64,000 nucleotides of DNA from an uncultured Gemmatimonadota bacterium. Its GTDB lineage: Bacteria > Latescibacterota > UBA2968 > UBA8231. A program made the position numbers and the translations under genes. Below the pieces are notes generated by a model. The model was not told the origin of the DNA. It worked only from the letters and a program-made list of their open reading frames with translations, and made no database searches. The stretch covers positions 947 to 64,946 of the forward strand of contig CAITNQ010000314.1 in NCBI GenBank assembly GCA_903893785.1, given 5' to 3'. Shown here piece by piece: positions 24,154-56,386 of the stretch (within the stretch, counting starts at the first letter, position 1; each line of letters begins with the position of its first letter).

Positions 24154-25101
24154 ATGGCCGATGTGCTGATCCGCCCCTATCGAGGTGCTGACGAACCCGC
24201 CCTGTTGGAGTTGTGGCGGTCGGCCCTGCCCGCGGACCCGATCGACCGTGCCACCTTCCGCCGCAAGGTCCTGCTGGACCCGAATTTCGACCCTGGGTGG
24301 CTGCTGCTGGCGGAGCGCTCGGATCGCCTGGTGGGCTTCTGCCTGGTACTGATCCGTCGGGCGCCGCTGGAGAAGGTCGGCATGCAACCCGAAGCCGCCT
24401 GGATCTCTGCCTTTGGCGTCCACCCGAGCGTCCGACGCCAGGGGATCGGCGGGGCCCTGCTCGAACGTGCCATGGACCTGTGCCGGCAGGCGAGCCGGCA
24501 ATTCCTGACCGTGGCGGCGTACATCCCGAATTACTTCGTGCCCGGCGTCGACGTCGCGCGCTACGCCGACGGGGTGGAGTTCCTGGGGCGACGGGGTTTC
24601 GAGGAACTGGACCGTCCCATCGCCATGGACACCGCCTTGGTGGGCCGCGATCTGAGCCCGTTCACCGGGCGGGCCGAGGCCCTGGCCAGCGAGCGCGGCG
24701 TGGAGGTCGGCTGCCTGCGGCCGGGGGAACTGCCCGCCCTCATGGGCTTCCTGCAGGAGCATATGCCAGGCGACTGGGTCCGTCACGCGCGCGAGTTGCT
24801 GCTCGACATCTGCCGCGGTAACGGCGATTTCGATCAGTTCACGGTCGCCCGGCACAAAGGAGAGATCGTCGGCTACTGTCAGTTCGACGGCGAGCACTTC
24901 GGTCCTTTTGGCGTCCGCGATGGCCTGCAGGGCCAGGGCATCGGCACCGTGCTGCTGGCGGTCTGCCTGCAGGCCATGCAGGACCGCGGCCTGCACACGG
25001 CTTTCGTGCTGTGGACCAGCGACGCCAATGCTGACAAGGTCTATTCGCGGTTCGGCTTCCGCGAGTCGAGACGCTTCAGCGTGCGCCGCCGGCGCCTGTA
25101 G
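24154..25101 (+). CDS. tandem-GNAT N-acetyltransferase (two acetyltransferase domains, 315 aa)
   Basis: Two acetyl-CoA-binding motifs: 'VHPSVRRQGIGGALLERA' and 'VRDGLQGQGIGTVLLAVC'. GGAGGG RBS before the ATG at 24154. Confidence 0.8.
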   Translation: MADVLIRPYRGADEPALLELWRSALPADPIDRATFRRKVLLDPNFDPGWLLLAERSDRLVGFCLVLIRRAPLEKVGMQPEAAWISAFGVHPSVRRQGIGGALLERAMDLCRQASRQFLTVAAYIPNYFVPGVDVARYADGVEFLGRRGFEELDRPIAMDTALVGRDLSPFTGRAEALASERGVEVGCLRPGELPALMGFLQEHMPGDWVRHARELLLDICRGNGDFDQFTVARHKGEIVGYCQFDGEHFGPFGVRDGLQGQGIGTVLLAVCLQAMQDRGLHTAFVLWTSDANADKVYSRFGFRESRRFSVRRRRL

Positions 25102-25134: not shown

Positions 25135-28100
25135 TCAGAACAGCGACAGCTGGTTCCGGGCCCCGCGCCGGGGCCGCGGTACCGCCGCCTCGCGCTCCAA
25201 CCAGGCAGGATCGATCGCATCGATAAAGGGCGACCAGGTGGTTTCCCGCCGCTCGCCAAAACGGAACCGCGTGCGCGCCCGCAGCAGCACCAGTTCATCC
25301 CTGGCCCGGGTCATGCCGACATAGAACAGCCGTCGTTCCTCGGCCATGTCATCGCCGGCCTCGCGGTGCGGCAGCAGGCCGCTTTCCACGCCGCAGATGA
25401 ACACCACCGGGAACTCGAGGCCCTTGGCGGCGTGCAGCGTCAGCAGGTTGACGGCGGCGCCGCTCGGGATCTGCTCGCCCACGCGGCGCTCGTAGTCAAC
25501 GCCGCGCCCGAGCAGGGCCCCGCGCAGGAACTCGGCCATGGACGGCACGCCCTGGGCCAGCCGGGCCAACTGCCCCAGATCGTCGTCATCGGGGCCGAAC
25601 TGGTCACGCCAGGCAGCGAACAGGGCTGCCGGACCCAACCCCTGGTATCGCTCCACCGCGGCCGCCAAGACCGGCGGGATCGCCGTATCGGATACCCCAG
25701 CGGCGGCATTAAGACGGTGCTCCAGGTCCGCGCGGGCCGGCGCAGCCAGCTGGAAGGGCCCGGCGCTGACCACCGCCAGGAGGCGTAGCGGGCGCCCCGG
25801 GTCCGCCAGGTAACGGGCAAAGGCCACCGCGGCGCGCACCGCCGGCGAGCTCAACAGAGCCCTGGACCCGCTGGAACGGAACGGCAGCCCGCCTCGCTGC
25901 AGCGCCTCCTCGAGCACCCCAGCCTGGGCGCCGGTGCGGTACAGAACGGCCAGGTCATCCAGGGCGTAACGTGCCTCGCGCCCGGCCGTGCGGTGCATTT
26001 CCAGCCCGCCGACCAACTGATCGATCTGCTCGACCACGATGGCGGCCTCGCCAGTTTCGTCAACCGCCTCGAGCTGACGGAGGCGCGCCCCGCGGTCGCG
26101 CACCGCGCGCCACCAGCCCGGGGGCCGACGGCGCTCCGGGTCGATCGCCTCGGCAGCGGCAGCGACGATGGCGGCCTGAGTGCGGTAGTTGGCGGCCAGG
26201 CGGTACTGGGTGGCCTGGGGCCAGTCGGTGTTGACCTTGGCCAGCAGGGCTGGCGACGCACCGCGGAAGGCGTAGATGGCCTGGTCCGGATCACCGATGG
26301 CGACCAGCCCCTCGCCGTTGCCGGCGAGCAACCGCACCAGGCGGTACTGGGTTGGATTGAGGTCCTGGAATTCGTCCACCAGCAGGTGGGCGGACCGGCG
26401 CTGCTCCTGTTCGCGGTAGCCCGGGTCAGCCTCCAGAGCCGCGATCCAGTCTAGCAGCAGGTCGTCGTAATCGCGCCCCTGGCAAGCGCACAGGCGCTGC
26501 TGATAGGCCTCGTAGGCACGGGCCAGCTGCGGATCGCTGTCGGCCGTTGGTACCACCCCGGCGGCCTTGGCGAGCGAAATGCCCCCTGCCAGACGCTCGA
26601 CGGTGCCCGCGTCCGTGCCGTCGGGCAGGCACGTCACGAGCAGCTGCCGAGCCTCAGCTTCGGCCAGCAATTCCCGACGGCCGGCCTCGCGCTGGGACAG
26701 CGCCGCCAGAGCCAGCGAATGGAAGGTGCCCAGGCGCAACCGTGCCGCGCCGGTGCTGCCCGGCAGGAGCCTTTCGAGGCGCTGCCGCAGCTCGTTTGCG
26801 GCCCGGTGCGTGAAGGTGACCAGAGTAATGGCTTGGGGCGAGACGCCGCACTGCTGCACCAGGTGCACGACCCGGCTGACGAGCACGCGCGTCTTGCCGG
26901 AACCCGGGCCGGCAACCACCACCAGCGGGCCGGGGCCGGCCTGGACCACGCGCTGTTGGTCTGCATCGAGACGGTCGGCGGCCACCGAGGGCAGGTCGGC
27001 CCGCGCGGGCGTCGGTGCGGGCAGGACCCCGGCTGGTCCGCGCGGCTTGCCGCGCCGGGGCGAAGCCACGCCCAGCAACCCCAACTGGCCCAGGAGCCGC
27101 TGCCGTTCCTCGTCCGTGAATACCTCGATCCGCCCGAACTCGCCGTCATAGCCCGGCGCGATCGCCACCTCGCCGCGGCGCATGCGCGTCAGTCCTGCGG
27201 CGACGAGCGGCTCGCCCTGGCGGGATAGCTCCTCAGGGTCCAGGTGACGGAGGACGTGCAGCTCGGGACCGAGCGCTGCCAGCAGGCGGTGGTACACCTG
27301 CTGCACGCGTTGACTGGCCACCCCCACGCCCAGGGACGACGCAATGACCTCGGCCAGCGGAATGATGTAATCGAAGGGCGGACGTTCGCCGCGTCCGGCC
27401 CCCTCCGGGCGGTCCGCCAGGCGCGCCACGCGATGCAGGACGCCGACAGTCACCGGCCGCCCGCAGACCGGGCAGCGGCCTTGGGCGCTGACCGTCTGAC
27501 GGGGATGCCAGCAGGTGCCGCAATTACGGTGACCGTCGTAGTGGTACTTACCCTCCTCGGGGTAGAACTCGATGGTGCCGGCCAGGCCGCCCGGGCTCGC
27601 TCCGGAAAGAGCCGTGAAGATGCCACGGTAGCTCAACTCAGTATCGAAACAGGTGGCCTCGCGGCCCAGTTTGGCAGGCGAATGCGCGTCCGAGTTGGAC
27701 ACCAGGGCGACGCGGTCGAGGGCGGAGAGCTGCCAGTTCATCGGCGGGTCCGACGACAGGCCGGTCTCAACCGCATGGACATGGGGCAACAGGTCGCCGA
27801 AGCACTCCTCAAGGCTGTCGAACCCGGAGCTGGCGCCGAGGACCGAGAAGTGGGGTGTCCAGATGTGAGCGGGGATGAACAGGACCTCGGAACACACCTC
27901 CAGGCAGATGGCCAGAAGATCGCGGCAGCTCAGGCCCAGGATGGGCCGGCCGTCGGCGGTCAGGTTGCCGATGGCACTGAGGCGCCCATTGAGGGCAGCG
28001 GCCGCGGCCAGGCTGGGCAGCATGACAATGGAGTGGACTTTGCGCGTGCGGCCGCCCTGTTTGTAGATGGTGCTGATCTCGCCGGTCAGCAGGAACCGGA

Positions 28101-28356
28101 CCGGACCCCGGCACGGCGACGGCAGGGCAGACACCAGCGGTTCGCGCCAGGTTGGCCGCAGTTGATAGAGCCCGGCCTCGGCCGGTTCCAGGTACTCGGC
28201 CAGTTCGGCCATCCAGACCGGATGCGTCAGGTCGCCGGTGCCGACCACAGTGATGCCCTTCAGCGCTGACCAGCGGTGCAGGGATACAGGGTTGAGCTCC
28301 TGGCTGGTGGCGCGGGCAAAGCGCGAGTGCAGGTGCAGGTCGGCAATGAAGCGCAT
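25135..28356 (-). CDS. fusion protein: EndoQ-like PHP/Zn-finger nuclease domain + UvrD/PcrA-type SF1 helicase
   Basis: N-terminus: 'MRFIADLHLHSRFARATS...GITVVGTGDLTHP' and a 4-Cys finger 'HRNCGTCW...GRCPVCGRPVTVGVLHRV'. Helicase motifs: I 'AGPGSGKT', II 'VDEFQD', III 'GDPDQAIYAFRGA', IV 'LYRTGAQ', V 'TLHAAKGLEFPVV', VI 'LFYVGMTRARDEL'. GGAGG RBS before the ATG at 28356. Confidence 0.85.
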   Translation of the reverse strand: MRFIADLHLHSRFARATSQELNPVSLHRWSALKGITVVGTGDLTHPVWMAELAEYLEPAEAGLYQLRPTWREPLVSALPSPCRGPVRFLLTGEISTIYKQGGRTRKVHSIVMLPSLAAAAALNGRLSAIGNLTADGRPILGLSCRDLLAICLEVCSEVLFIPAHIWTPHFSVLGASSGFDSLEECFGDLLPHVHAVETGLSSDPPMNWQLSALDRVALVSNSDAHSPAKLGREATCFDTELSYRGIFTALSGASPGGLAGTIEFYPEEGKYHYDGHRNCGTCWHPRQTVSAQGRCPVCGRPVTVGVLHRVARLADRPEGAGRGERPPFDYIIPLAEVIASSLGVGVASQRVQQVYHRLLAALGPELHVLRHLDPEELSRQGEPLVAAGLTRMRRGEVAIAPGYDGEFGRIEVFTDEERQRLLGQLGLLGVASPRRGKPRGPAGVLPAPTPARADLPSVAADRLDADQQRVVQAGPGPLVVVAGPGSGKTRVLVSRVVHLVQQCGVSPQAITLVTFTHRAANELRQRLERLLPGSTGAARLRLGTFHSLALAALSQREAGRRELLAEAEARQLLVTCLPDGTDAGTVERLAGGISLAKAAGVVPTADSDPQLARAYEAYQQRLCACQGRDYDDLLLDWIAALEADPGYREQEQRRSAHLLVDEFQDLNPTQYRLVRLLAGNGEGLVAIGDPDQAIYAFRGASPALLAKVNTDWPQATQYRLAANYRTQAAIVAAAAEAIDPERRRPPGWWRAVRDRGARLRQLEAVDETGEAAIVVEQIDQLVGGLEMHRTAGREARYALDDLAVLYRTGAQAGVLEEALQRGGLPFRSSGSRALLSSPAVRAAVAFARYLADPGRPLRLLAVVSAGPFQLAAPARADLEHRLNAAAGVSDTAIPPVLAAAVERYQGLGPAALFAAWRDQFGPDDDDLGQLARLAQGVPSMAEFLRGALLGRGVDYERRVGEQIPSGAAVNLLTLHAAKGLEFPVVFICGVESGLLPHREAGDDMAEERRLFYVGMTRARDELVLLRARTRFRFGERRETTWSPFIDAIDPAWLEREAAVPRPRRGARNQLSLF

Positions 28357-28517
28357 GGGAGATCCTCCGGCGCCGCAGCGGCAAACAGGGAGGACCAGTA
28401 TACGGGGGCTCGGGGGCCACCTCAAGGCGCCGCCCGGACAGCACCTGGCTTGCAGGCCCGGCAGGGCATAGGTTCTGGTTCCCCTCACGCCCACCCCACC
28501 TGAGGAGGTCCGCATCC

Positions 28518-29696
28518 ATGCACCTGTGCAGACGGCACTGGTTCCGCCTGTTGCTGACCACTGGCCTGGCCGCCGCGTTGCCGGCTGGCGCTGACAACGT
28601 CATCCTGTTCATCGGCGACGGCGCCGGACTGGCGCAGGTGGCCGCGGCCCGCATGGCCGCGCGCGGGCCGGACGGGCGCCTGGCGGTGGACGAGCTGGAA
28701 GACATCGGCCTGGTGACCACGCATTCGGCCAGCGGCCTGACCACTGACTCAGCCGCCGGCGCCACGGCCTATGCCACCGGCCACAAGACGACCAACGGCT
28801 GGCTCTCGGTGGCACCGGACGGCACGCGCCTGAAGACCCTGGTCGAGTACGCGCGCGAGGCCGGGATGGGGACCGGGATAGTCACCACGACCGGGGTAAC
28901 CCACGCCACGCCGGCGGCCTTCGCCGCCCACGTCAATGACCGTGGCGCGCAGGCCCAGATTGCGCCCATGATGGTGGCCACCGGACCGGACGTCCTGCTC
29001 GGCGGCGGTCGCAGTCTGTGGCTCCCCAAAGGAGCCCCGGGTTCGGAACGAGCCGACAGTCTGGACGTTGTGGCGTTGGCTCAACAAGCGGGGTACATGG
29101 TGGTCACGGACCGTATCGGCTTGCTGGCGGCCAACCCGCGCGCAACGCCACGCCTGCTGGGCCTGTTCGCGCTTGGGCATCTGTCCTACGTCGTCGACAG
29201 CGTGAGCACGGCCGAGCCGTCCCTGGCCGAGATGACGCGCAGCGCCATCGACCGGCTGCAGCACTCCCGCCGCGGGTTCTTCCTGATGGTCGAGGGTGGC
29301 CGAATCGATCACGCCTGCCACGGTCATGAGGGCACCAAGGCCATCTGGGAGGTGCTGAGCTTGGACCAGGCCATCCGCGAGGCAATCGACTTCGCCCACC
29401 GAGACCGGCACACGCTGGTGATTTTCGTCGCCGATCACGAGACGGGTGGCCTGTCGGTGGCCAATGGGCTGTACGACGGCTTCCCCGCCATTCCTCGCCG
29501 CGATGGGCAACCAGAGCGCACGGCCCCGCTGCAGGATCAGCTCAAACTGGGCTGGACCACCGACGGCCACACCGGCCTGCCGGTGATCGCCATGGCCGCC
29601 GGACCGGGCGCCGGCCGCGTCCGCGGCGTGCTGGACAACACGCAGATCTTCACCATTGCCATGCAGGCACTGGGACTGGAGGACAGACTCCGATGA
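28518..29696 (+). CDS. alkaline phosphatase (PhoA family), secreted
   Basis: Signal peptide, then 'NVILFIGDGAG', active-site 'TDSAAGATAYATGHKT' and 'DHACHG'. GAGGAGG RBS. Confidence 0.9.
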   Translation: MHLCRRHWFRLLLTTGLAAALPAGADNVILFIGDGAGLAQVAAARMAARGPDGRLAVDELEDIGLVTTHSASGLTTDSAAGATAYATGHKTTNGWLSVAPDGTRLKTLVEYAREAGMGTGIVTTTGVTHATPAAFAAHVNDRGAQAQIAPMMVATGPDVLLGGGRSLWLPKGAPGSERADSLDVVALAQQAGYMVVTDRIGLLAANPRATPRLLGLFALGHLSYVVDSVSTAEPSLAEMTRSAIDRLQHSRRGFFLMVEGGRIDHACHGHEGTKAIWEVLSLDQAIREAIDFAHRDRHTLVIFVADHETGGLSVANGLYDGFPAIPRRDGQPERTAPLQDQLKLGWTTDGHTGLPVIAMAAGPGAGRVRGVLDNTQIFTIAMQALGLEDRLR

Positions 29697-30754
29697 CCTG
29701 GCGAGTCGGTATTGCGGGGCTGCGGCGGGGGGCCAGCCTGGCCCACGTGCTCCATATGCAGCCGGACTGCACCATCGCGGCTGGCTGTGATCCAGCCCCC
29801 GCGGCGCTCGACGCTTTCGGCGCGCGTTACCCGCAGGCGCGACTGTTCAGCACGTTCGCCGATATGCTTGACGCAGGCATCGATGTCTGCGTCGTGGCTT
29901 CGCCAGTGCCGCTTCATTGCGCCCAGACCGTAGCCGCCCTAGCGGCCGGGTGCCACGTTCTCCAGGAAGTTTGCCTGGCGCCTTCGGTAGCCGAGTGCCG
30001 GACCGTGTTCGAGGCAGTGCAGGCACACCCCAGGCAGCAGTTCATGCTGGCCGAGAACTGCAACTACTGGGGGCACATCCTGTCCTGGCAGAGCATGTTT
30101 GCCCAGGGACTGCTGGGCGAACTGGTGCACGCCGAAGCTGAGTATATCCACGACTGTCGTACCCTGATGCACGACGCCGAAGGACGCCCCACTTGGCGGG
30201 CCACCATGCCGCCCATTCACTATTGCACCCACAGCCTGGGCCCCCTGCTGAAAATCACCGGCGCCCGCTGCGTGACGGCGTGCGGCATGCTGTCGGCCTC
30301 GAAGACCGACCCGGGCCCCGGGCACATCGATATCGAGACTGCCCTGTTGCAGACCGACACCGGCGCCACGGTGAAGCTAGTGGCGGGTTTCCGCGTGGCG
30401 CGCGAACCGGCTTTCCACTACTACTCGGTGTACGGGACGCGCGGCAGCCTGGAGACCGCGCGACCGCCCGCCCCCGCCCAGACCCATGCGTACCTGGAAG
30501 CGATCCCGCACCTGCAGGGCATGATGGACCTGCCGTTGGGCACGGATGTGCCGCGGGCTCCCGCCGGTGCCGGCGTGGGTGGCCATGGTACTGCCGAGTA
30601 TTACCTGGCGGTGGACTTCATGCGGGCGGTGCGCGAGGGAACGCGTCCGGCGATCGACATCCATGCCGCCCTGGACATGTCGTTACCCGGATTATGCGCC
30701 CACGAGAGCGCCCTGCAGGGCGGCAGACCGGTGGAGGTACCCGACTGGCGATAG
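29693..30754 (+). CDS. Gfo/Idh/MocA-family oxidoreductase
   Basis: 'WRVGIAGLRRGASL' and 'GCHVLQEV' (a degenerate EKP motif), with family-typical length. ATGA overlap with the phosphatase gene. Confidence 0.8.
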   Translation: MTWRVGIAGLRRGASLAHVLHMQPDCTIAAGCDPAPAALDAFGARYPQARLFSTFADMLDAGIDVCVVASPVPLHCAQTVAALAAGCHVLQEVCLAPSVAECRTVFEAVQAHPRQQFMLAENCNYWGHILSWQSMFAQGLLGELVHAEAEYIHDCRTLMHDAEGRPTWRATMPPIHYCTHSLGPLLKITGARCVTACGMLSASKTDPGPGHIDIETALLQTDTGATVKLVAGFRVAREPAFHYYSVYGTRGSLETARPPAPAQTHAYLEAIPHLQGMMDLPLGTDVPRAPAGAGVGGHGTAEYYLAVDFMRAVREGTRPAIDIHAALDMSLPGLCAHESALQGGRPVEVPDWR

Positions 30755-41540: not shown

Positions 41541-42731
41541 ATGAGCACCCAAGCGCCCCAGCGCATTGCCGTGATCGCCACCATCTACAAGTACCTGTCC
41601 CACGCCCAGCACTTCGCCGACCGCTTCATGGTGGGTTACCCGTACGAAGGCCGGTGGCAGCGCCCGAATATGAAGGTCGTGTCGCTGTTCGTGGACCAGC
41701 GGCCCATGGGCGACCAGAGCGAGGACCGTGCCCGCGAATTCGGCTTCTGCGTCTACCCCACCATCGCCGCAGCCCTGCGCTGTGGCGGCGACCGTCTGGC
41801 AGTGGACGCCGTGCTCATCATCGGCGAGCACGGCGACTATCCGACCAACGAGCTGGGCCAGATCCTCTACCCACGCTATGAGTTCTTCAAAGAATGCGTG
41901 AAGGTGTTCGAAGCGGACGGCCGCAGTGTGCCGGTGTACAACGACAAACACCTTTCGTACAGCTTCGCCAAGGCCCGTGAAATGGTCGACGATGGTCACC
42001 GCCTGGGCTTCCCCATCCTGGCGGGTTCGTCGCTGCCGGTTACCTGGCGCCTGCCCGATGTGGAGCTGCCGCTCGGCGCGCCTGTGGAAGAGGCGGTCAT
42101 GGTGGGCTGCGGCGGTTCGGACCCGATGGACTACCATGCGCTGGAGGCCATGCAGTGCATGGTGGAGCGTCGGCGGGGCGGTGAGACGGGCATCAAAGCT
42201 GTGCAGTTGCTCGACGGCGACGATGTCTGGCGGGCGCTGGATGCCGGTCGCTGGTCGCGCGCGCTGTTGGAAGCGGCGCTGTCGCGCAGCGACTCACCCT
42301 GCGGCCTGACGCTGGAGGACGGCCGCACGCAGGACATGCTGGGCAACGGCGAACTGCCGCGCTTGGTGGAGAAGCCAGCTGCATATTTGATCGAGTACAA
42401 CGACGGGCTGCGGGCCACGCTGTTGATGCTCAACGGCGCGGTACGCGACTTCTGCTTCGCCTGCCGCCTGACGGGCCAGGCAGAACCCGTGTCGACCCAG
42501 TTCTTCCTGACGCCGGTGCCCAACGTCACGTACTCGGCTTGCCTGGTAGCCAAGATCGTCGAGATGTTCCAGACCGGTTCGGCGCCTTTCCCTGCCGAAC
42601 GCACGCTCATCGTCAGCGGCATGCTGGAGAGCTGCCTGCAGTCGCGCGCGCACGGGCACCAGCGCCTCGAGACGCCCCACCTGTCGGTGGTCTATCAGGC
42701 CCCTGCCGAGTCCCATCACGCCCGACGGTGA
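41541..42731 (+). CDS. uncharacterised protein P2 (tandem paralog of P1)
   Basis: Colinear with P1, for example 'YPRYEFFKECVKVF', 'VPVYNDKHLS', 'LAGSSLPVTWR', 'YHALEAMQCMVERRRGGETG' and 'ETPHLSVVYQA'. The start could be the ATG at 41541 or the TTG at 41520. Confidence 0.8.
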   Translation: MSTQAPQRIAVIATIYKYLSHAQHFADRFMVGYPYEGRWQRPNMKVVSLFVDQRPMGDQSEDRAREFGFCVYPTIAAALRCGGDRLAVDAVLIIGEHGDYPTNELGQILYPRYEFFKECVKVFEADGRSVPVYNDKHLSYSFAKAREMVDDGHRLGFPILAGSSLPVTWRLPDVELPLGAPVEEAVMVGCGGSDPMDYHALEAMQCMVERRRGGETGIKAVQLLDGDDVWRALDAGRWSRALLEAALSRSDSPCGLTLEDGRTQDMLGNGELPRLVEKPAAYLIEYNDGLRATLLMLNGAVRDFCFACRLTGQAEPVSTQFFLTPVPNVTYSACLVAKIVEMFQTGSAPFPAERTLIVSGMLESCLQSRAHGHQRLETPHLSVVYQAPAESHHARR

Positions 42732-43624
42732 GTTCGCCGGTCTCGACCGGCGAACTGGCGGCCCTGCTGTGCGCCCTGCTGTGGGCCGTCAACGGCATGC
42801 TGTTGCGCGCCCAGGCCGACCGTATTCCGCCGACCAGTGTCACGGTGGTGCGCTGCGCGGTGGCGGCGCTGATGTTTTGGCTGCTGCTGCCCTTCAGCGA
42901 CTCCCTGACCGAACTGGGCCGAGTACCCTGGGGCGAATGGGGGCTGTTGCTGGCTTCGGTGATGGCCGGTATCGGTGTCGGCGACACGCTCTATCTCATC
43001 GCCATCAAGCAGATTGGCCTGAGCCTGACCATGGCCCTGGCCGGCGTTTTCCCACTGACCACCCTGGTGTGGGAGTGGCTGCTGCTGGGGCGGCCGCCGG
43101 GCTGGTCGTTGGCCGTGGGCAGCGTGCTGGTAGTCGCCGGTGTCGTGCTCATGTCGCGCTCCGGCGACCGCCGGTCGGCCACCCTGGCGGCCTCGCCGCA
43201 GCACCTGCAACGAGGTTTGGCCCTGGCCCTGGGAGCGGCGGTGTTCTGGGGCCTGGCCTCGGTTCTGCTCAAACCGGCCATTGCCCACCTGTCGCTGCTG
43301 CAGGCCAATGCTGCCCGCATGACGATGGTCGCCGCGCTGCTCTACGCGCTGCGCGTGCTGCCGCAGGGCCGCCAGGGGCTGGGAACCTACGACCGCCGTT
43401 CCTTCCTCATCGTCAGCCTCACGGGCATCCTGGGCATGGGCGTGGGGGCCTACCTGTTTCTCTACGCCCTGGGCCATATGGGCGTGGCCAAGGCCGTGAC
43501 CCTGACCTCCAGCGCGCCGCTGTTCGGAGTCGCCCTGGGGATGGCCTTCCTGCACGAACGCCTCACACCCGCCGCGGGTTTGGGAGTGGCCTGCTGCATG
43601 GTGGGCGTCTGGGTCGTGTTGTGA
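42728..43624 (+). CDS. DMT-superfamily (EamA-like) transporter
   Basis: About 10 hydrophobic segments, with EamA-like repeats ('LLCALLWAVNGMLLR' and 'AVFWGLASVLLKP'). The GTG at 42728 overlaps the P2 stop (GTGA). Confidence 0.8.
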   Translation: MSSPVSTGELAALLCALLWAVNGMLLRAQADRIPPTSVTVVRCAVAALMFWLLLPFSDSLTELGRVPWGEWGLLLASVMAGIGVGDTLYLIAIKQIGLSLTMALAGVFPLTTLVWEWLLLGRPPGWSLAVGSVLVVAGVVLMSRSGDRRSATLAASPQHLQRGLALALGAAVFWGLASVLLKPAIAHLSLLQANAARMTMVAALLYALRVLPQGRQGLGTYDRRSFLIVSLTGILGMGVGAYLFLYALGHMGVAKAVTLTSSAPLFGVALGMAFLHERLTPAAGLGVACCMVGVWVVL

Positions 43625-43652
43625 CCGTGAATGACCGGACCGCAGCCGGCCC

Positions 43653-44564
43653 ATGAGCCCGATTGCCATCGCCCTGATCGTGGTGTCGGCCATCCTGCAC
43701 GCCACCTGGAACCTGCTGAGCAAACGCCGGCAACCCGCCTCGGGGTACTTCCTGCTGGCCAACCTGGCCGGCGTGGCGCTGCTCTCGCCGGTGGTGCTCG
43801 TTTATCGGGTCGTGCTGCAGCAGCGTACCTTGCCTTTGCTCGGGCTGCTGGCCCTGACGGGCGTGTTCCAAGCCACCTATTACGGGGGCCTGGCGCGCGC
43901 CTACCGCGCCGGGGACATCTCGGTGGCCTATCCGCTGGCCCGTTCGTCGCCGGTGCTGATGGTGACGGCAGCCAGTTTCCTTGCGGGCCGTGGCAGCCCC
44001 GTAAGCGGCGCCTGTATCGCCGGCATGCTGCTGGTGGTCTGCGGGTGTGCGCTGGTGCCCATGCACCACCTGGGCGACCTGCGGTGGCGCACCTACGCCA
44101 ACCCGACCTGCGCCTTCGCGCTGGTGGCCGCCGTAGGGACGGCAGGCTACTCACTGGTCGACGATCTGGCACTGCGCCTGCTGCGGGACACGCCCGCACG
44201 CGCCGCCGTCGGGGTGACCGGGGTGACACTGGTCTACGCCTGGATGGAGGGCATGTCCACCAGCGTCTGCTTGTTCGCCCTCAGCGCCTGCCGGCCCGCC
44301 GCCCGGCAGCGTCTGCGCCGCTACCTGGCCAATGACATCAAGGGTGCGTGCCTGGCGGGAGGGATGATCTACCTGACCTACTCGCTGGTATTGACTGCCA
44401 TGGCTTTCGTCACTCACGTCAGCTATGTGGTGGCCTTCCGGCAGCTGAGCATTCCATTGGGCGCCGTGTTCGGCGTGGTGGTGCTACGCGAACCCGCGTA
44501 CCGCCCCAAGGCCCTGGGCGTGGCGATCGTGCTGGGCGGTCTGGTGCTGGTGGCCACCGGCTGA
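43653..44564 (+). CDS. DMT-superfamily membrane protein
   Basis: 303 aa and about 10 TM segments ('IALIVVSAILHATWNLLSK'). Confidence 0.7.
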   Translation: MSPIAIALIVVSAILHATWNLLSKRRQPASGYFLLANLAGVALLSPVVLVYRVVLQQRTLPLLGLLALTGVFQATYYGGLARAYRAGDISVAYPLARSSPVLMVTAASFLAGRGSPVSGACIAGMLLVVCGCALVPMHHLGDLRWRTYANPTCAFALVAAVGTAGYSLVDDLALRLLRDTPARAAVGVTGVTLVYAWMEGMSTSVCLFALSACRPAARQRLRRYLANDIKGACLAGGMIYLTYSLVLTAMAFVTHVSYVVAFRQLSIPLGAVFGVVVLREPAYRPKALGVAIVLGGLVLVATG

Positions 44565-53987: not shown

Positions 53988-54030
53988 TGCGGACTCCCGC
54001 GCTAGGGTGGGGGGGCAAGTGCGCGTAGGG

Positions 54031-54039
54031 AATATAGCA
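54031..54039 (-). promoter_or_regulatory. extended -10 element (TGCTATATT) for the GH95 gene
   Basis: The minus strand reads aaTGCTATATTcc, ~45 nt upstream of the GTG at 53987. Confidence 0.4.
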
Positions 54040-54085
54040 TTCAGGGCCGCCCTTCACCGGGTCTGGCCGCAGCCCGCCGCGACCG

Positions 54086-54114
54086 TTGTAAGGGTCCGCC
54101 CGCAGGTCTATATT
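54086..54114 (+). promoter_or_regulatory. sigma70-like promoter (TTGTAA-N17-TATATT)
   Basis: Exact 17-nt spacing, ~115 nt upstream of the ATG at 54232. Confidence 0.5.
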
Positions 54115-54231
54115 CCAGCCTCTGCCCCGGTTCCGGGCGCTGTACGGGTTGGGCCGATGGACGCAGACGGTCGGCGGCGCTACCGGGAAGTGAAGCACCT
54201 CGTCTTCGGGCGCAGAGAGGCGGCCGTAACG

Positions 54232-55110
54232 ATGCACATTCCTGGCCCCAGGTGGGTCGCGGCGGCGATCGGCGTTGCGGGGTGCCTGCTGCTAGCAGCG
54301 TTGGAGGCACAGGAGGTGCCGCCGGCGGGATCGAGCGCCTGTGACGAGAACGAGCAGCAGTTCGGTTCTCTGCTGTCGGGCGACAGCGACGCGACGCCCG
54401 ATCTGCTGGCCGGCTACTGCGAGTCGGAGTGCCTGTCGCCCGTGACGTCGGGGGTCACGCCACCGGCCAACGCCGATGCCCGCCTGGTGGCCATGGCCAG
54501 GCTGTGCGCCCGGCAGGACGGCGAGTACTGCTTCCCCGAGTTCGCCAGCGCCCTGCAGATCCTGGCCGAGACCGAGCGCGACCCGGTGCCGTCAGACGTG
54601 CTCCAGGCTGCCTGTACCCCCTGCGCGCGGGGCCTGTACCGGGAGCTGCTGGCCATCGGCACGGGCGATCCGCAGGGGCCCTCGCCCCTGGATCTGGCCT
54701 GCGACCGGCAAGGCGGTTTCTGCCTGGTAGGCACGCGGCAGATACTCGACCAGCTTGACGCTCTGGACACCACCTGCGCGCCGGATACGGGTTCGGCCTG
54801 CCAGCAGCAACTGTTCGAGTTCGCGACCGCCTTCAGCGCCCAGGACAGCTGCGTGCTCGGGTCGCTCAGCCCCTTCTGCGGCAGCCGTCTGCTCCCGACC
54901 GGCCGCGCTGCCCTGGCCGTCGCGTGGGCAGGCCTGCAGCAGTCAAGCGAGCGCCTGCGGCCGCAGCGCAACCAGCCGACGGCCAGCCGCGCCGCGCTGA
55001 TGGCTTACCAGCGGGAGGCGGCGTCAATGCAGCAGCAGTTGGGCTATGCCACGCTGCTGTTTCAGCCGACCGAGCTGCTGGACATGGAGTTCTCCGGCGC
55101 CAGTTTCTGA
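54232..55110 (+). CDS. secreted cysteine-rich hypothetical protein
   Basis: Signal peptide 'MHIPGPRWVAAAIGVAGCLLLAALEA', then about 14 Cys spread over 265 aa. I recognised no family. Confidence 0.55.
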   Translation: MHIPGPRWVAAAIGVAGCLLLAALEAQEVPPAGSSACDENEQQFGSLLSGDSDATPDLLAGYCESECLSPVTSGVTPPANADARLVAMARLCARQDGEYCFPEFASALQILAETERDPVPSDVLQAACTPCARGLYRELLAIGTGDPQGPSPLDLACDRQGGFCLVGTRQILDQLDALDTTCAPDTGSACQQQLFEFATAFSAQDSCVLGSLSPFCGSRLLPTGRAALAVAWAGLQQSSERLRPQRNQPTASRAALMAYQREAASMQQQLGYATLLFQPTELLDMEFSGASF

Positions 55111-55144
55111 CGCCGCGCCACGCCCCTTTGCCGAGGATCCTGAC

Positions 55145-56386
55145 TTGCCGGGTTGGCCCGCCCCTAACGCTGCGCTGCGCCACAGCCTGGACCGCTGGCG
55201 TCGGCAGCCCGTCGATCTGCGTCGTTTTGTGACTGCCCTGTGTATCGGTACGGTGGCGGGCTCGCTGGTCGACCCGGCTTTTAACAACTACCTGCGAGAC
55301 ACCTTCTCCCTGGGGGCGGATCAGCGCGGCAAGCTGGAGTTCCCACGCGAGTTGCCCGGGTTCCTGGTCACCTTTACCTCGGGGCTGCTGTTCTTCCTGC
55401 CCGAAGCCCGGACCGCGGCGGTTGCCACAGTAGTAACCGCGCTCGGGGTCGCGGGTCTGGCCTGGGCCGGGTCTAGTTACGCCACCATGGTGGCGTGCAT
55501 GTTCTGCTGGTCGCTGGGCATGCACCTGATGATGCCCATGCGTTCGGCCATCACGCTCTCCTTTGCCCGGCAGGGGCAGCAGGCCACCATCCTGGGCGTG
55601 ACCGGAAGTATCACTACCGTGGCGTCGATCTTGGGCTCCGCCGCCGGCTGGTGGCTCTTCGCCCGATTCGGCGCCAACGCACACAGCTACAACGCAGCCT
55701 TCCTGGCCAGCGCCGTGCTGATGATGGCCAGCGCCGTGCTGCTGCTGCGCCTTTCCACGCCCACGGTGGGCGAAGCGCGGCCGCGGGCCAAGCTGGTGGT
55801 GCGCCGTCGCTATTGGGTCTATTACGTGATGTCGATGCTGAGCGGGGCCCGCAAGCAGGTGTTCATCACCTTTGCTCCTTGGGTTCTGATCACCATCTTC
55901 CACCAGGGGCCCTCGACCTTCGCGGCGCTGGCCATCGTCGCGTCAATCCTGGGGACCGGTGTGCAGCCGCTGTTGGGCCGCCTCATCGACCGTTTCGGCG
56001 AGCGCCGCCTGCTGGTCCTGGAGGGGTTGCTCCTGGTGCTGGTCTGCCTGGGCTATGGCTTCGGGCACCGGCTGGGCGCGACCGAGTTCGTTCTGCCGCT
56101 CATCTGCGTCTGTTTTGTCTTCGACAACCTGCTGTTCTCGTTCGGCATGGCGCGCACGACCTATGTCACGAAAATCGCCGAGCGCCAGGAAGACTTGACC
56201 GCCACTCTGTCGCTGGGCGTAACGCTGGACCACGCAGTGTCGATGTCGATCCCGGTCTTGGGGGGTCTGACCTGGATGGCGTACGGATTCGAGTACGTCT
56301 TCCTGGGGGCAGCCGGGCTGGCGATCCTCAGCGCGGTGGTGGCTCTGCAGGTACGGTTACCCGCCTCGACAGCGGCGACCGGCTGA
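55145..56386 (+). CDS. MFS transporter
   Basis: About 12 TM segments. I prefer the TTG at 55145 (GAGGA RBS 7 nt upstream, clear of the upstream stop) over the ORF-track start at 55046. Start position uncertain. Confidence 0.75.
   Translation: MPGWPAPNAALRHSLDRWRRQPVDLRRFVTALCIGTVAGSLVDPAFNNYLRDTFSLGADQRGKLEFPRELPGFLVTFTSGLLFFLPEARTAAVATVVTALGVAGLAWAGSSYATMVACMFCWSLGMHLMMPMRSAITLSFARQGQQATILGVTGSITTVASILGSAAGWWLFARFGANAHSYNAAFLASAVLMMASAVLLLRLSTPTVGEARPRAKLVVRRRYWVYYVMSMLSGARKQVFITFAPWVLITIFHQGPSTFAALAIVASILGTGVQPLLGRLIDRFGERRLLVLEGLLLVLVCLGYGFGHRLGATEFVLPLICVCFVFDNLLFSFGMARTTYVTKIAERQEDLTATLSLGVTLDHAVSMSIPVLGGLTWMAYGFEYVFLGAAGLAILSAVVALQVRLPASTAATG

What the first reader, a model, noticed from the sequence alone, without database searches (positions are those of the whole stretch)
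25135..28356. EndoQ-like PHP/Zn-finger nuclease fused to a complete UvrD/PcrA helicase
- Residues ~1-400 have the EndoQ/TIGR00375 layout: 'DLHLHS', 'GTGDLTHP', and a 4-Cys finger 'CGTC...CPVCGRPVTVGVLHRV'.
- The remaining ~670 aa carry all SF1 motifs I-VI.
- EndoQ enzymes, as characterised in Thermococcales and Bacillus, nick DNA 5' of deaminated or abasic bases.
- Covalent coupling to a 3'-5' helicase would combine incision and strand displacement in one polypeptide.
- Nuclease-helicase fusions also recur in anti-phage systems, so a defence role cannot be excluded. The neighbouring genes are not defence-like.
Basis: partly seen in the sequence, partly recalled or inferred. Interest (0 to 1): 0.6.

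Follow-up and report, generated by a model that had tools for sequence, protein, structure and literature searches.

The report
EndoQ nuclease fused to UvrD-type helicase
This gene encodes one protein that joins a complete endonuclease Q (an enzyme that nicks DNA next to deaminated or missing bases) to a complete UvrD/PcrA-type DNA-unwinding motor with sliding-clamp docking motifs. The fusion is real, common in bacteria, already listed in the literature but never characterised, and it looks like a DNA-repair enzyme rather than an anti-phage weapon.

Summary
A single 1073-aa ORF lies on the minus strand at 25135-28356, with a GGAGGA ribosome-binding site.

- **Nuclease half.** Residues 5-412 align end to end with P. 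furiosus EndoQ (E 4.5e-49). The model superposes on it with TM 0.87 and rmsd 2.6 Å. Every metal ligand, the base pocket and the C4 zinc finger are kept.
- **Helicase half.** Residues 462-1060 form a full four-subdomain UvrD/PcrA-type SF1A helicase (TM about 0.8 to D. radiodurans UvrD). All SF1 motifs checked except the Q-motif position are invariant or nearly so. It is a paralogue, because the genome also holds a true PcrA/UvrD.
- **Not an artefact.** Over 565 species in many phyla carry the same full-length layout, and the two halves co-evolve (r = 0.93).
- **Distribution.** In the window's own class the gene is single-copy and nearly core. It has no conserved neighbours, and the EndoQ module is absent from 50,697 phage genomes and found on only 1 of 72,556 plasmids.
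- **Clamp motifs.** The protein ends in QLSLF and has a second clamp-like motif (QLGLL) at the EndoQ/linker junction.
- **Prior literature.** A 2016 paper already lists 34 long bacterial "EndoQ homologs" with this C-terminal motif, so the layout is known. Its biochemistry is not.

The most likely function is clamp-tethered nick-and-unwind excision repair of dU, dI and abasic sites.

The parts
25135..28356 (-). Complete CDS (1073 aa plus stop) of the EndoQ-UvrD fusion protein
   Evidence: ORF and translation. Full-length homologues of 40-64% identity over 100% of the query.
28363..28368 (-). Ribosome-binding site GGAGGA, 6 nt upstream of the ATG at 28356
   Evidence: Read directly from the sequence.
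28397..28425 (-). Promoter-like site TTGAGG-17-TATACT, about 40 nt upstream of the start codon
   Evidence: Consensus scan: 1 site found against 0.1 expected. This is a consensus match only.
27121..28356 (-). Endonuclease Q module (residues 1-412): PHP catalytic domain, Zn-binding domain and C-terminal helical domain
   Evidence: phmmer to 5zb8/7k30, E 4.5e-49, full length. TIGR00375, E 1.8e-45. Foldseek TMt 0.87-0.88, rmsd 2.6 Å. Metal ligands H8, H10, E93, H108, H164, D223 and H225 are invariant in 77 homologues.
27463..27522 (-). C4 zinc finger (C279, C282, C295, C298), equivalent to Pfu C249/C252/C268/C271
   Evidence: Alignment and residue roles from PMC5961232. C279, C295 and C298 are invariant. 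C282 is kept in 57 of 77 homologues.
27073..27087 (-). Internal clamp-binding-like motif QLGLL (residues 424-428) at the end of the EndoQ module; family consensus GQxxLF
   Evidence: Q424 is at least 90% conserved. The motif is present in 65 of 71 fused homologues. It sits where short bacterial EndoQs end in QxxLF.
26974..27072 (-). Pro/Ala/Arg-rich flexible linker (residues 429-461)
   Evidence: pLDDT is below 50 for residues 431-459. Length (about 30-90 aa) and sequence vary between homologues.
25177..26973 (-). UvrD/PcrA/Rep-type SF1A helicase module (residues 462-1060), with Walker A GPGSGKT at 483-489 and DEFQD at 661-665
   Evidence: PF00580, PF13361 and PF13245. PcrA 1pjr, E 1.1e-76. 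Foldseek to D. radiodurans UvrD, TMt 0.78-0.81 over about 650 columns. SF1 motifs other than the variable Q-motif position are invariant or nearly so.
25138..25152 (-). C-terminal beta-clamp-binding motif QLSLF (residues 1069-1073, the very last residues)
   Evidence: Exact match to the QL[S/D]LF consensus. Q1069 is invariant and L1072/F1073 are at least 90% conserved. 63 of 77 homologues have Q[LM]x[LF][FL] in the last 16 residues. The tail is disordered in the model. The same motif is tabulated for 34 long homologues in PMC4858679 Fig. S1.

Best explanation
The gene encodes a chromosomal housekeeping DNA-repair enzyme. One polypeptide carries four elements:
- a complete, catalytically intact endonuclease Q;
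- a disordered linker;
- a complete UvrD/PcrA-type SF1A helicase, which is a paralogue of the genome's true PcrA/UvrD;
- two beta-sliding-clamp docking motifs, one at the EndoQ/linker junction and one at the extreme C-terminus.

Proposed mechanism (nick-and-unwind alternative excision repair):
1. The protein is held on DNA by the beta clamp.
2. The EndoQ module flips a deaminated base (dU, dI, dX) or an abasic site into its pocket. It cuts the phosphodiester bond immediately 5' of the lesion, leaving a 3'-OH and a 5'-phosphate that carries the lesion.
3. The tethered helicase loads at this nick on the intact strand and moves 3'->5' along it. This peels off the lesion-bearing 5' end, as UvrD does from a nick in mismatch repair and PcrA does at a RepD nick.
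4. A polymerase extends the 3'-OH, a 5'-flap or 5'-3' exonuclease removes the displaced strand, and ligase seals the nick.

Shown here: the architecture, the intact catalytic and motor residues, the clamp-type motifs, the distribution and the genomic context.
Inferred: substrate specificity, helicase polarity, loading strand, clamp binding and the order of events.
For: - **EndoQ identity.** Full-length match to PfuEndoQ. TM 0.87, rmsd 2.6 Å.
- **Active site.** All residues whose mutation abolishes or reduces PfuEndoQ activity (H8, H10, E76, H84, H139, D193; PMC5961232) are invariant in 77 fused homologues. So are pocket residues T142, E167, G169, L170 and S171; N191 is 95% conserved.
- **Helicase identity.** Best matches are PcrA, UvrD and Rep. 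SF1 motifs I-VI are invariant or nearly so at almost every position checked.
- **Paralogue, not the housekeeping helicase.** A separate gene scores 878 bits to the PcrA model, against 338 bits for this one.
- **One evolutionary unit.** Pairwise identities of the two halves correlate at r = 0.93 across 71 sequences from many phyla.
- **Clamp tethering.** A terminal QLSLF and an internal GQxxLF-type motif occur together in 64 of 71 homologues. Archaeal EndoQ binds PCNA through a C-terminal PIP box and is stimulated by it (PMC4858679). That paper also tabulates the beta-clamp motif in long bacterial homologues.
- **Housekeeping pattern.** Single copy in 49 of 61 relatives and in 94 of 125 genomes of the phylum that are at least 90% complete, mostly inside open frames over 900 aa.
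- **Genomic context.** G+C is the same as the surroundings. The gene is monocistronic, between a divergent alkaline phosphatase gene and a convergent GNAT gene. No neighbour is conserved across phyla.
- **Not mobile.** The EndoQ module has no match in 50,697 phage genomes and one in 72,556 plasmids.
- **Pathway logic.** A helicase step after the EndoQ nick is already part of published pathway models (PMC4357722 Fig. 10; PMC8438529).
- **Repair repertoire.** The MAG has a UDG but no EndoV hit, which leaves hypoxanthine repair to this enzyme.
Against: - No biochemistry exists for any long-form member in the searchable literature.
- The protein scores below NCBIfam's curated cut-offs for TIGR00375 (156 against 326.6 bits) and for PcrA/UvrD/Rep.
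- The lesion sits at the 5' end of the nick, so Pol I nick translation alone could remove it. The need for a helicase is therefore not obvious.
- Two close relatives (G014 with conserved synteny, and G059) carry a stand-alone EndoQ with no helicase and no clamp tail. The EndoQ-domain tree needs at least 11-18 switches between fused and short forms. The helicase is therefore dispensable in some lineages.
- The internal motif in this protein (QLGLL) is a weak version of the consensus and is modelled at the end of a helix.
- Inter-domain geometry is not confidently predicted (pTM 0.65).
- The absence of EndoV rests on a 94%-complete MAG.
Confidence: 0.6

Rival explanations
1. Same protein, different division of labour. 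The helicase does not excise the lesion strand. Instead it serves the nuclease in one of two ways. It may act as a translocating motor that scans DNA behind the clamp or replisome and delivers EndoQ to lesions. Or it may act as a turnover factor that strips the tightly bound nuclease from its nicked product, as UvrD does for UvrC in nucleotide excision repair. Pol I nick translation then removes the lesion.
For: The lesion lies at the 5' end of the nick, where a 5'-3' exonuclease can remove it without unwinding (EndoQ product chemistry). The helicase half is far less constrained than the nuclease half (41% against 62% mean identity). It has been lost repeatedly without loss of EndoQ, as expected for an accessory enhancer. 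The long flexible linker allows the modules to act independently.
Against: All ATPase and DNA-translocation motifs are strictly conserved over very long evolutionary distances. This argues for a real motor function, but it does not separate scanning or turnover from strand displacement. No data here separate the two.
Confidence: 0.22
2. It is an anti-phage or anti-foreign-DNA defence enzyme. The EndoQ module recognises uracil-containing or otherwise non-canonical phage DNA, nicks it, and the helicase unwinds it for degradation. This would resemble other nuclease-helicase defence systems such as Gabija.
For: PADLOC GajB and DRT helicase models hit the helicase half (up to 246 bits). [quoted passage not shown]
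Against: The GajB hits are generic UvrD-fold hits. PcrA, UvrD and Rep match far better (E 1e-76 against 1e-12 for solved GajB). No GajA/OLD partner or any other defence gene lies nearby, and no neighbour is conserved across 70 loci. The gene is single-copy and near-core in its class, not patchy. The EndoQ module is absent from phages and virtually absent from plasmids. G+C is native. Conserved beta-clamp motifs point to the host replisome.
Confidence: 0.07
3. The fusion is an artefact: an assembly or frameshift error joining a stand-alone endoQ gene to a neighbouring uvrD-like gene in this MAG.
For: The genome is a fragmented MAG (561 contigs, 7.8% contamination). Stand-alone EndoQs exist in relatives.
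Against: Over 565 species, including closed chromosomes, have the same continuous reading frame aligned over 100% of the query. The linker and both flanking motifs are conserved in position. A cluster with the identical protein exists in the public collection (P0003).
Confidence: 0.01

Closest known systems
Endonuclease Q of Pyrococcus furiosus / Thermococcus kodakarensis (PF1551, TK0887; PDB 5ZB8, 7K30-7K33)
   Same: Full-length collinearity over the PHP, Zn-binding and helical domains at about 30% identity. Identical metal ligands, the same base-pocket residues and a C4 zinc finger. Both carry a sliding-clamp docking motif in a C-terminal tail (PIP box in archaea).
   Different: The archaeal enzymes are about 420 aa with no helicase. 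Here a 600-aa SF1A helicase follows a linker. The clamp motif is of the bacterial beta type (QLSLF) and is duplicated (internal plus terminal). Pfu L168 is T in this protein. Pfu W144 is H here, and H or W across the fused family.
Short bacterial EndoQ (B. pumilus / B. subtilis enzymes characterised by Shiraishi et al. 2017; PGAP name 'endonuclease Q family protein')
   Same: The same EndoQ module. Short bacterial forms are 55-66% identical to the window's N-terminal 436 aa and share the bacterial T at the Pfu-L168 position. About half of the sampled short forms end in QxxLF, exactly where the fusion keeps its internal motif.
   Different: They have no helicase. Short and fused forms interleave on the EndoQ-domain tree, with at least 11-18 switches. 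Only short forms have been assayed biochemically.
Long-form bacterial 'EndoQ homologs' listed in Shiraishi et al. 2016 (PMC4858679, Suppl. Fig. S1). Probably one of the bacterial 'families 2 and 3 by domain organization' of Shiraishi et al. 2017; that paper is not held, so this is not verified.
   Same: Same size class (about 950-1250 aa) and the same C-terminal QLxLF motif at the very end. The lineages are also found here (Caldilinea, Desulfobacterota, Clostridiales, Spirochaetes). The window protein is a member of this set.
   Different: The published table gives only accession numbers and the motif. The word helicase does not occur in that paper. No activity, structure or genetics has been reported for any long form in the library searched.
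UvrD / PcrA / Rep (SF1A 3'-5' helicases; PDB 4C2T, 2IS6, 1PJR, 1UAA)
   Same: SF1A helicase motifs and the four-subdomain fold including 2B (TMt 0.78-0.81). They are known to start unwinding from nicks in mismatch repair, nucleotide excision repair and rolling-circle replication (established knowledge).
   Different: This is a paralogue, not an orthologue: 338 bits against a 911-bit cut-off, and a true PcrA/UvrD is encoded elsewhere. The alignment to PcrA ends about 70 residues before its C-terminus, so the C-terminal extension that binds RNA polymerase in PcrA/UvrD appears to be replaced by the clamp-binding tail (inference). An N-terminal nuclease is attached.
AddA / RecB / AdnB helicase-nucleases and Gabija GajB
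   Same: A UvrD-like motor is combined with a nuclease in one protein or complex.
   Different: In those enzymes the nuclease is a C-terminal PD-(D/E)xK domain acting at DNA ends, or a separate OLD/TOPRIM GajA subunit. Here it is an N-terminal, lesion-specific PHP nuclease. Similarity to AddA, RecB and GajB is much weaker than to PcrA/UvrD, and no partner subunit gene is adjacent.

Membership tests
Endonuclease Q (EndoQ; TIGR00375 / PF27218) | Collinear three-domain layout (PHP catalytic, Zn-binding and C-terminal helical domains) over the whole length | tested here: met
   phmmer: residues 5-412 against PfuEndoQ 5-382, E 4.5e-49. Foldseek: TMt 0.87-0.88, rmsd 2.6 Å over about 416 columns.
Endonuclease Q (EndoQ; TIGR00375 / PF27218) | Zn ligands H8, H10, E76, H84, H139 and D193 (plus H195), whose mutation reduces or abolishes activity | tested here: met
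   They are present as H8, H10, E93, H108, H164, D223 and H225, and are invariant in 77 fused homologues. Residue roles come from PMC5961232.
Endonuclease Q (EndoQ; TIGR00375 / PF27218) | C4 zinc finger (Pfu C249, C252, C268, C271) | tested here: met
   C279, C282, C295 and C298 are all present in the window protein. The second Cys is missing in 18 of 71 fused homologues from other lineages.
Endonuclease Q (EndoQ; TIGR00375 / PF27218) | Lesion-recognition pocket (Pfu H139, T142, E167, L168, G169, L170, S171, N191, D193) | tested here: met
   Eight of nine residues are identical and invariant or 95% conserved. L168 is T here, as in 90 of 98 short bacterial EndoQs.
Endonuclease Q (EndoQ; TIGR00375 / PF27218) | Score above NCBIfam's curated cut-off for TIGR00375 | tested here: not met
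   156 bits against a cut-off of 326.6; only profile positions 75-374 were aligned. None of the genomes searched in the phylum passes the cut-off either, so the model appears tuned to other lineages. PGAP nevertheless names short relatives 'endonuclease Q family protein'.
Endonuclease Q (EndoQ; TIGR00375 / PF27218) | Nicking immediately 5' of dU, dI, dX and AP sites | not testable with these tools
   This needs an enzyme assay.
Endonuclease Q (EndoQ; TIGR00375 / PF27218) | Sliding-clamp docking motif in a C-terminal tail | tested here: met
   QLSLF forms the last five residues. The motif is conserved across the family and matches the published table. Actual binding was not tested.
UvrD/PcrA/Rep SF1A helicases | SF1 motifs Q, I, Ia, Ib, II, III, IV, V and VI | tested here: met
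   GPGSGKT, TFT, TFH, DEFQD, GDPDQAIYAFRG, NYR, HAAKGLEF and YVGMTRA are present. Positions checked in motifs I, Ib and II-VI are invariant or nearly so in 77 sequences. The Q-motif position checked (Q468) and the Ia K/R position (R518) vary across the family.
UvrD/PcrA/Rep SF1A helicases | Four-subdomain fold 1A/1B/2A/2B | tested here: met
   The model aligns over about 650 columns to full-length D. radiodurans UvrD (645 aa), TMt 0.78-0.81.
UvrD/PcrA/Rep SF1A helicases | Orthology to PcrA, UvrD or Rep (equivalog cut-offs) | tested here: not met
   338, 274 and 316 bits against cut-offs of 911, 1144 and 951. The genome's true PcrA/UvrD scores 878.6 bits. The fusion helicase is a paralogue.
UvrD/PcrA/Rep SF1A helicases | 3'-5' translocation and unwinding from a nick | not testable with these tools
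   Inferred from family membership only.
Gabija (GajA/GajB) and similar nuclease-helicase defence systems | Adjacent partner gene (GajA OLD-type ATPase/TOPRIM nuclease) or another defence gene | tested here: not met
   The neighbours are alkaline phosphatase, a GFO/IDH/MocA oxidoreductase, a double GNAT and a PIG-L deacetylase. No neighbour cluster recurs across 70 loci.
Gabija (GajA/GajB) and similar nuclease-helicase defence systems | Patchy, accessory, mobile-element-linked distribution | tested here: not met
   Single copy in 49 of 61 relatives and 94 of 125 genomes of the phylum. The EndoQ module has no phage hit and one plasmid hit. G+C is native.
AddA/RecB-type helicase-nucleases | C-terminal PD-(D/E)xK nuclease domain and a partner subunit (AddB, RecC) | tested here: not met
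   There is no such domain. The nuclease is an N-terminal PHP/EndoQ module, and the AddA and RecB models match only the motor core. A separate AddA-like gene exists on contig C344.

The most novel reading that the evidence does not exclude
The EndoQ-UvrD fusion may define a self-contained, glycosylase-independent 'nick-and-unwind' excision pathway in which lesion recognition, incision and strand displacement reside in one polypeptide. Its two conserved clamp motifs (internal GQxxLF and terminal QLxLF) would hold it on the beta clamp, possibly filling both pockets of one beta2 dimer. That would couple removal of dU, dI and AP sites to replication or to the clamps left behind it. In lineages such as this one, which shows no EndoV hit, it would be the main route for hypoxanthine repair. 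It would also be one of the commonest natural forms of EndoQ in Bacteria.
Probability: 0.35. Interest if true: 0.6.

Novelty: new member of a known kind. Interest (0 to 1): 0.35.

Why it matters
EndoQ-initiated repair has been worked out only for short archaeal and Bacillus enzymes, and the steps after the nick remain a model: a helicase or strand-displacing polymerase, then a flap nuclease. The long bacterial form physically joins the nicking enzyme to a UvrD-type motor and a clamp tether. It is therefore a natural experiment that shows which activities belong together.

It occurs in hundreds of species. These include gut Clostridia (Blautia, Dorea, Lachnospiraceae) found. Cultivable taxa listed in the 2016 table include Desulfovibrio, Geobacter metallireducens, Zymomonas mobilis and Rhodothermus marinus.

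A modest set of assays would establish a new bacterial excision-repair route for deaminated bases. For genome annotation, the practical point is that these genes are currently named only 'UvrD-helicase domain-containing protein', which hides the nuclease.

Tried and rejected
- **Longer ORF from the ATG at 28515.** Rejected on the ribosome-binding site, the promoter-like site and the N-termini of homologues.
- **Generic PHP phosphoesterase.** Rejected.
- **Frameshift or assembly artefact.** Rejected.
- **Gabija/GajB reading of the PADLOC hits.** Rejected as generic UvrD-fold matches.
- **Conserved operon partners.** All-against-all clustering of neighbours in 70 loci found only a generic ABC ATPase (11 loci) and lineage-restricted synteny. 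Nth and Mfd each lie next to the gene in only 3 loci, too few to use.
- **Split-gene equivalents among relatives.** The two stand-alone EndoQ genes examined (G014, G059) have no helicase gene beside them.
- **Literature on the fusion.** Searches for EndoQ or endonuclease Q with helicase, UvrD, helicase domain, clamp or three families, and for TIGR00375, found no study of it.
- **Papers not held.** Shiraishi et al. 2017 (BBB 81:931) and Shi et al. 2021 (PNAS) are not held. What 'families 2 and 3' are could therefore not be verified.
- **PF27218.** It appears in the precomputed annotations but is not in the local Pfam copy.
- **First look at the stand-alone UvrD locus.** It picked a spurious opposite-strand ORF. 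This was corrected.
- **First MAFFT run.** It timed out and was rerun.

Full report
**Observation.** The window has about 68% G+C. On the minus strand an ORF runs from an ATG at 28515 to a stop at 25135-25137. GGAGGA lies 6 nt upstream of it. A promoter-like TTGAGG-17-TATACT at 28425-28397 lies inside the longer version. All 70 aligned homologues begin MxIADLHIHS at this point. The product has 1073 residues. The gene stands alone. Upstream, an alkaline phosphatase gene is transcribed divergently, starting at 28518. Downstream, a double-GNAT gene converges on it, ending at 25101.

**The N-terminal module is endonuclease Q.** Residues 5-412 align without large gaps to residues 5-382 of P. furiosus EndoQ (PDB 5zb8, 7k30; E 4.5e-49). 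TIGR00375 matches at E 1.8e-45. The crystal-structure paper names H8, H10, E76, H84, H139 and D193 as Zn ligands whose mutation reduces or abolishes activity. It names C249, C252, C268 and C271 as the zinc finger. It names H139, T142, E167, L168, G169, L170, N191 and D193 as the lesion pocket (PMC5961232). A review adds G169 and S171 as the steric gate against T and A (PMC8307549).

In the window protein these are H8, H10, E93, H108, H164, D223 and H225; C279, C282, C295 and C298; and T167, E197, G199, L200, S201 and N221. In 77 fused homologues from many phyla all metal ligands and almost all pocket residues are invariant. The one systematic difference is that Pfu L168 is T here. Short bacterial EndoQs share this (90 of 98), so it is a bacterial trait and not specific to the fusion.

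An AlphaFold2 model built on a 71-sequence alignment has mean pLDDT 86.9. It superposes on 5zb8 with TM 0.87-0.88 and rmsd 2.6 Å. The score is below NCBIfam's curated cut-off (156 against 326.6 bits), and I report that as an unmet formal criterion. No genome of this phylum passes the cut-off either.

**The C-terminal module is a complete SF1A helicase, but a paralogue.** Pfam finds UvrD-helicase (E 1e-57), UvrD_C and AAA_19. The best solved relatives are PcrA (E 1.1e-76), D. radiodurans UvrD, Rep and M. tuberculosis UvrD1. GajB is forty or more orders of magnitude weaker. The model aligns over about 650 columns to full-length UvrD with TM 0.78-0.81, so all four subdomains are present. Of the positions checked, those in motifs I, Ib and II-VI are invariant or nearly so in 77 sequences; the Q-motif position and one Ia position vary.

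The scores are far below the PcrA, UvrD and Rep equivalog cut-offs. The same genome encodes a real PcrA/UvrD (878.6 bits, contig C355) and an AddA-like protein. The alignment to PcrA stops about 70 residues before its C-terminus. The C-terminal extension of PcrA/UvrD therefore seems to be replaced here by a short tail. This last point is inference.

**The junction is genuine.** They include Latescibacterota and Gemmatimonadota (54%), many Clostridia, Negativicutes, Chloroflexota, Nitrospirota, Desulfobacterota, Bacteroidota, Spirochaetota, Planctomycetota and KSB1. Pairwise identities of the two halves correlate at r = 0.93, so they have been inherited together. The nuclease half is the more constrained (62% against 41% mean identity). 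Between them lies a linker of about 30-90 residues. It is low in complexity, variable in length and disordered in the model (pLDDT below 50 at 431-459).

**Clamp motifs.** The protein ends in ...NQLSLF, an exact QL[S/D]LF beta-clamp consensus. Q1069 is invariant and L1072/F1073 are at least 90% conserved. In 63 of 77 homologues Q[LM]x[LF][FL] lies in the last 16 residues. Most of the rest have QxxLF variants or are cut by contig ends. A second motif, with consensus GQxxLF, directly follows the EndoQ module. It is QLGLL (424-428) in the window protein and is present in 65 of 71 homologues. 64 of 71 have both motifs. This is the position where short bacterial EndoQs end in QxxLF, so it is probably the ancestral tail retained at the fusion point. 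Archaeal EndoQ binds PCNA through a C-terminal PIP box and is stimulated by it (PMC4858679).

**Repair or defence.** Five lines of evidence bear on this.
- Within the window's family and class the gene is single-copy in 49 of 61 genomes. In the phylum it is in 94 of 125 genomes that are at least 90% complete, mostly inside open frames over 900 aa.
- Clustering the neighbours of 70 loci gave no partner conserved across phyla. Only lineage-restricted synteny appeared, such as the 646-aa gene at 21340-23280 in the closest relatives.
- The neighbours in the window are metabolic.
- The EndoQ module has no match in 50,697 phage genomes. It has one match in 72,556 plasmids, on a 733-kb Brevibacillus replicon where it is annotated 'endonuclease Q family protein'.
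- The PADLOC GajB hits are what any UvrD-like helicase gives.

Together with the clamp motifs, this favours a housekeeping repair role. The MAG has a UDG but no EndoV hit. The MAG is 94% complete, so that absence is provisional.

**Fused and short forms.** Two relatives in the same family or class have a stand-alone EndoQ: G014 (420 aa) and G059 (432 aa). Neither has an adjacent helicase gene or a clamp tail. In G014 the syntenic 656-aa neighbour is still in place, so the helicase part was cleanly lost. Short 'endonuclease Q family proteins' that are 55-66% identical to the window's EndoQ module are abundant. On a FastTree of 101 fused and 100 short EndoQ modules, at least 11 (well-supported branches only) to 18 switches are needed. 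Some short entries may be truncated gene calls. The helicase is thus a frequent but not obligatory companion.

**Mechanism.** Shown: the architecture and the conservation. Inferred from family knowledge:
1. EndoQ cuts 5' of dU, dI, dX or an AP site, leaving a 3'-OH and a 5'-P that carries the lesion.
2. An SF1A motor moving 3'->5' on the intact strand from that nick would travel in the direction that peels off the lesion-bearing 5' end. UvrD does this from a 5' nick in mismatch repair, and PcrA does it at a RepD nick.
3. A polymerase fills the gap, and a flap or 5'-3' nuclease plus ligase finish the repair.

A helicase step after the EndoQ nick already features in published models (PMC4357722 Fig. 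10; PMC8438529). The main rival is that the motor serves scanning or product release rather than excision. It cannot be excluded, because Pol I could remove a 5'-terminal lesion unaided and the helicase is dispensable in some lineages.

**What is already known.** The supplement of Shiraishi et al. 2016 tabulates putative beta-clamp motifs in bacterial EndoQ homologues. It lists 10 short ones (motif at about residues 401-464) and 34 long ones (motif at residues 941-1244), including Caldilinea, Desulfovibrio, Geobacter metallireducens, Zymomonas, Rhodothermus and Sorangium. Miyazono et al. 2018 state that EndoQ proteins were classed into three families 'based on the domain organization', with families 2 and 3 bacterial. 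The 2017 paper itself is not held. The long form and its clamp tail are therefore on record. JGI labels such proteins TIGR00375 family, and PGAP labels them UvrD-helicase domain-containing. I found no paper that names the helicase domain, discusses the fusion or assays a long form.

**Earlier notes of this scan.** Notes on the same family in other genomes reached similar conclusions. I re-tested their specific claims here: the literature listing, the two clamp motifs and repair rather than defence.

**Verdict.** This is a new member of a listed but uncharacterised kind. It is of moderate interest as a well-defined biochemical target and is not a surprise to specialists.

Noticed in passing
L088 6391-7653 (-) [G014] and L087 6862-8160 (-) [G059]: Two relatives in the same family or class carry a stand-alone EndoQ (420 and 432 aa). 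It ends just after the GYDGE[YF]G motif, with no helicase, no clamp tail and no adjacent helicase gene. In G014 the syntenic 656-aa neighbour is retained, so the helicase half was cleanly deleted.
   Followed up: partly
window 21340-25101 (+): A 646-aa protein with no Pfam hit is followed by an overlapping PIG-L deacetylase and a double-GNAT protein. The 646-aa gene stays next to the fusion gene in the closest relatives (L007, L008, L009, L079, L088). An earlier first-reader note (e1-2955156) reads it as PlsB-like/MshD-like.
   Followed up: partly
alignment A1, column of query C282: In 18 of 71 fused homologues (for example Caldilineales, KSB1 and some Bacillota) the second Cys of the C4 zinc finger is really absent, replaced by R, V, S or W. 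The other three Cys and two upstream His (H272, H276) are invariant. This suggests a C3H-type site in those lineages.
   Followed up: partly
L027, L052, L078 (endonuclease III-like) and L015, L057, L082 (Mfd-like): In a few Clostridia loci the fusion gene lies next to an Nth-type glycosylase gene or an mfd-like gene. Three loci each is too few to call an association.
   Followed up: no
G000 whole genome: The MAG (7.26 Mb, 561 contigs, 94% complete, 7.8% contamination) has one UDG-family gene (C79) but no endonuclease V match. It also has a true PcrA/UvrD (C355) and an AddA-like 1298-aa frame (C344).
   Followed up: partly
window 42001-44000 and 54001-56000: AT skew turns strongly negative (-0.23 and -0.17) in two 2-kb bins, against slightly positive values elsewhere. 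This was not examined.
   Followed up: no
window 28518-30754 (+): An alkaline phosphatase gene (392 aa) and a GFO/IDH/MocA-type oxidoreductase gene (353 aa) overlap by 4 nt. They are transcribed divergently from the fusion gene.
   Followed up: no
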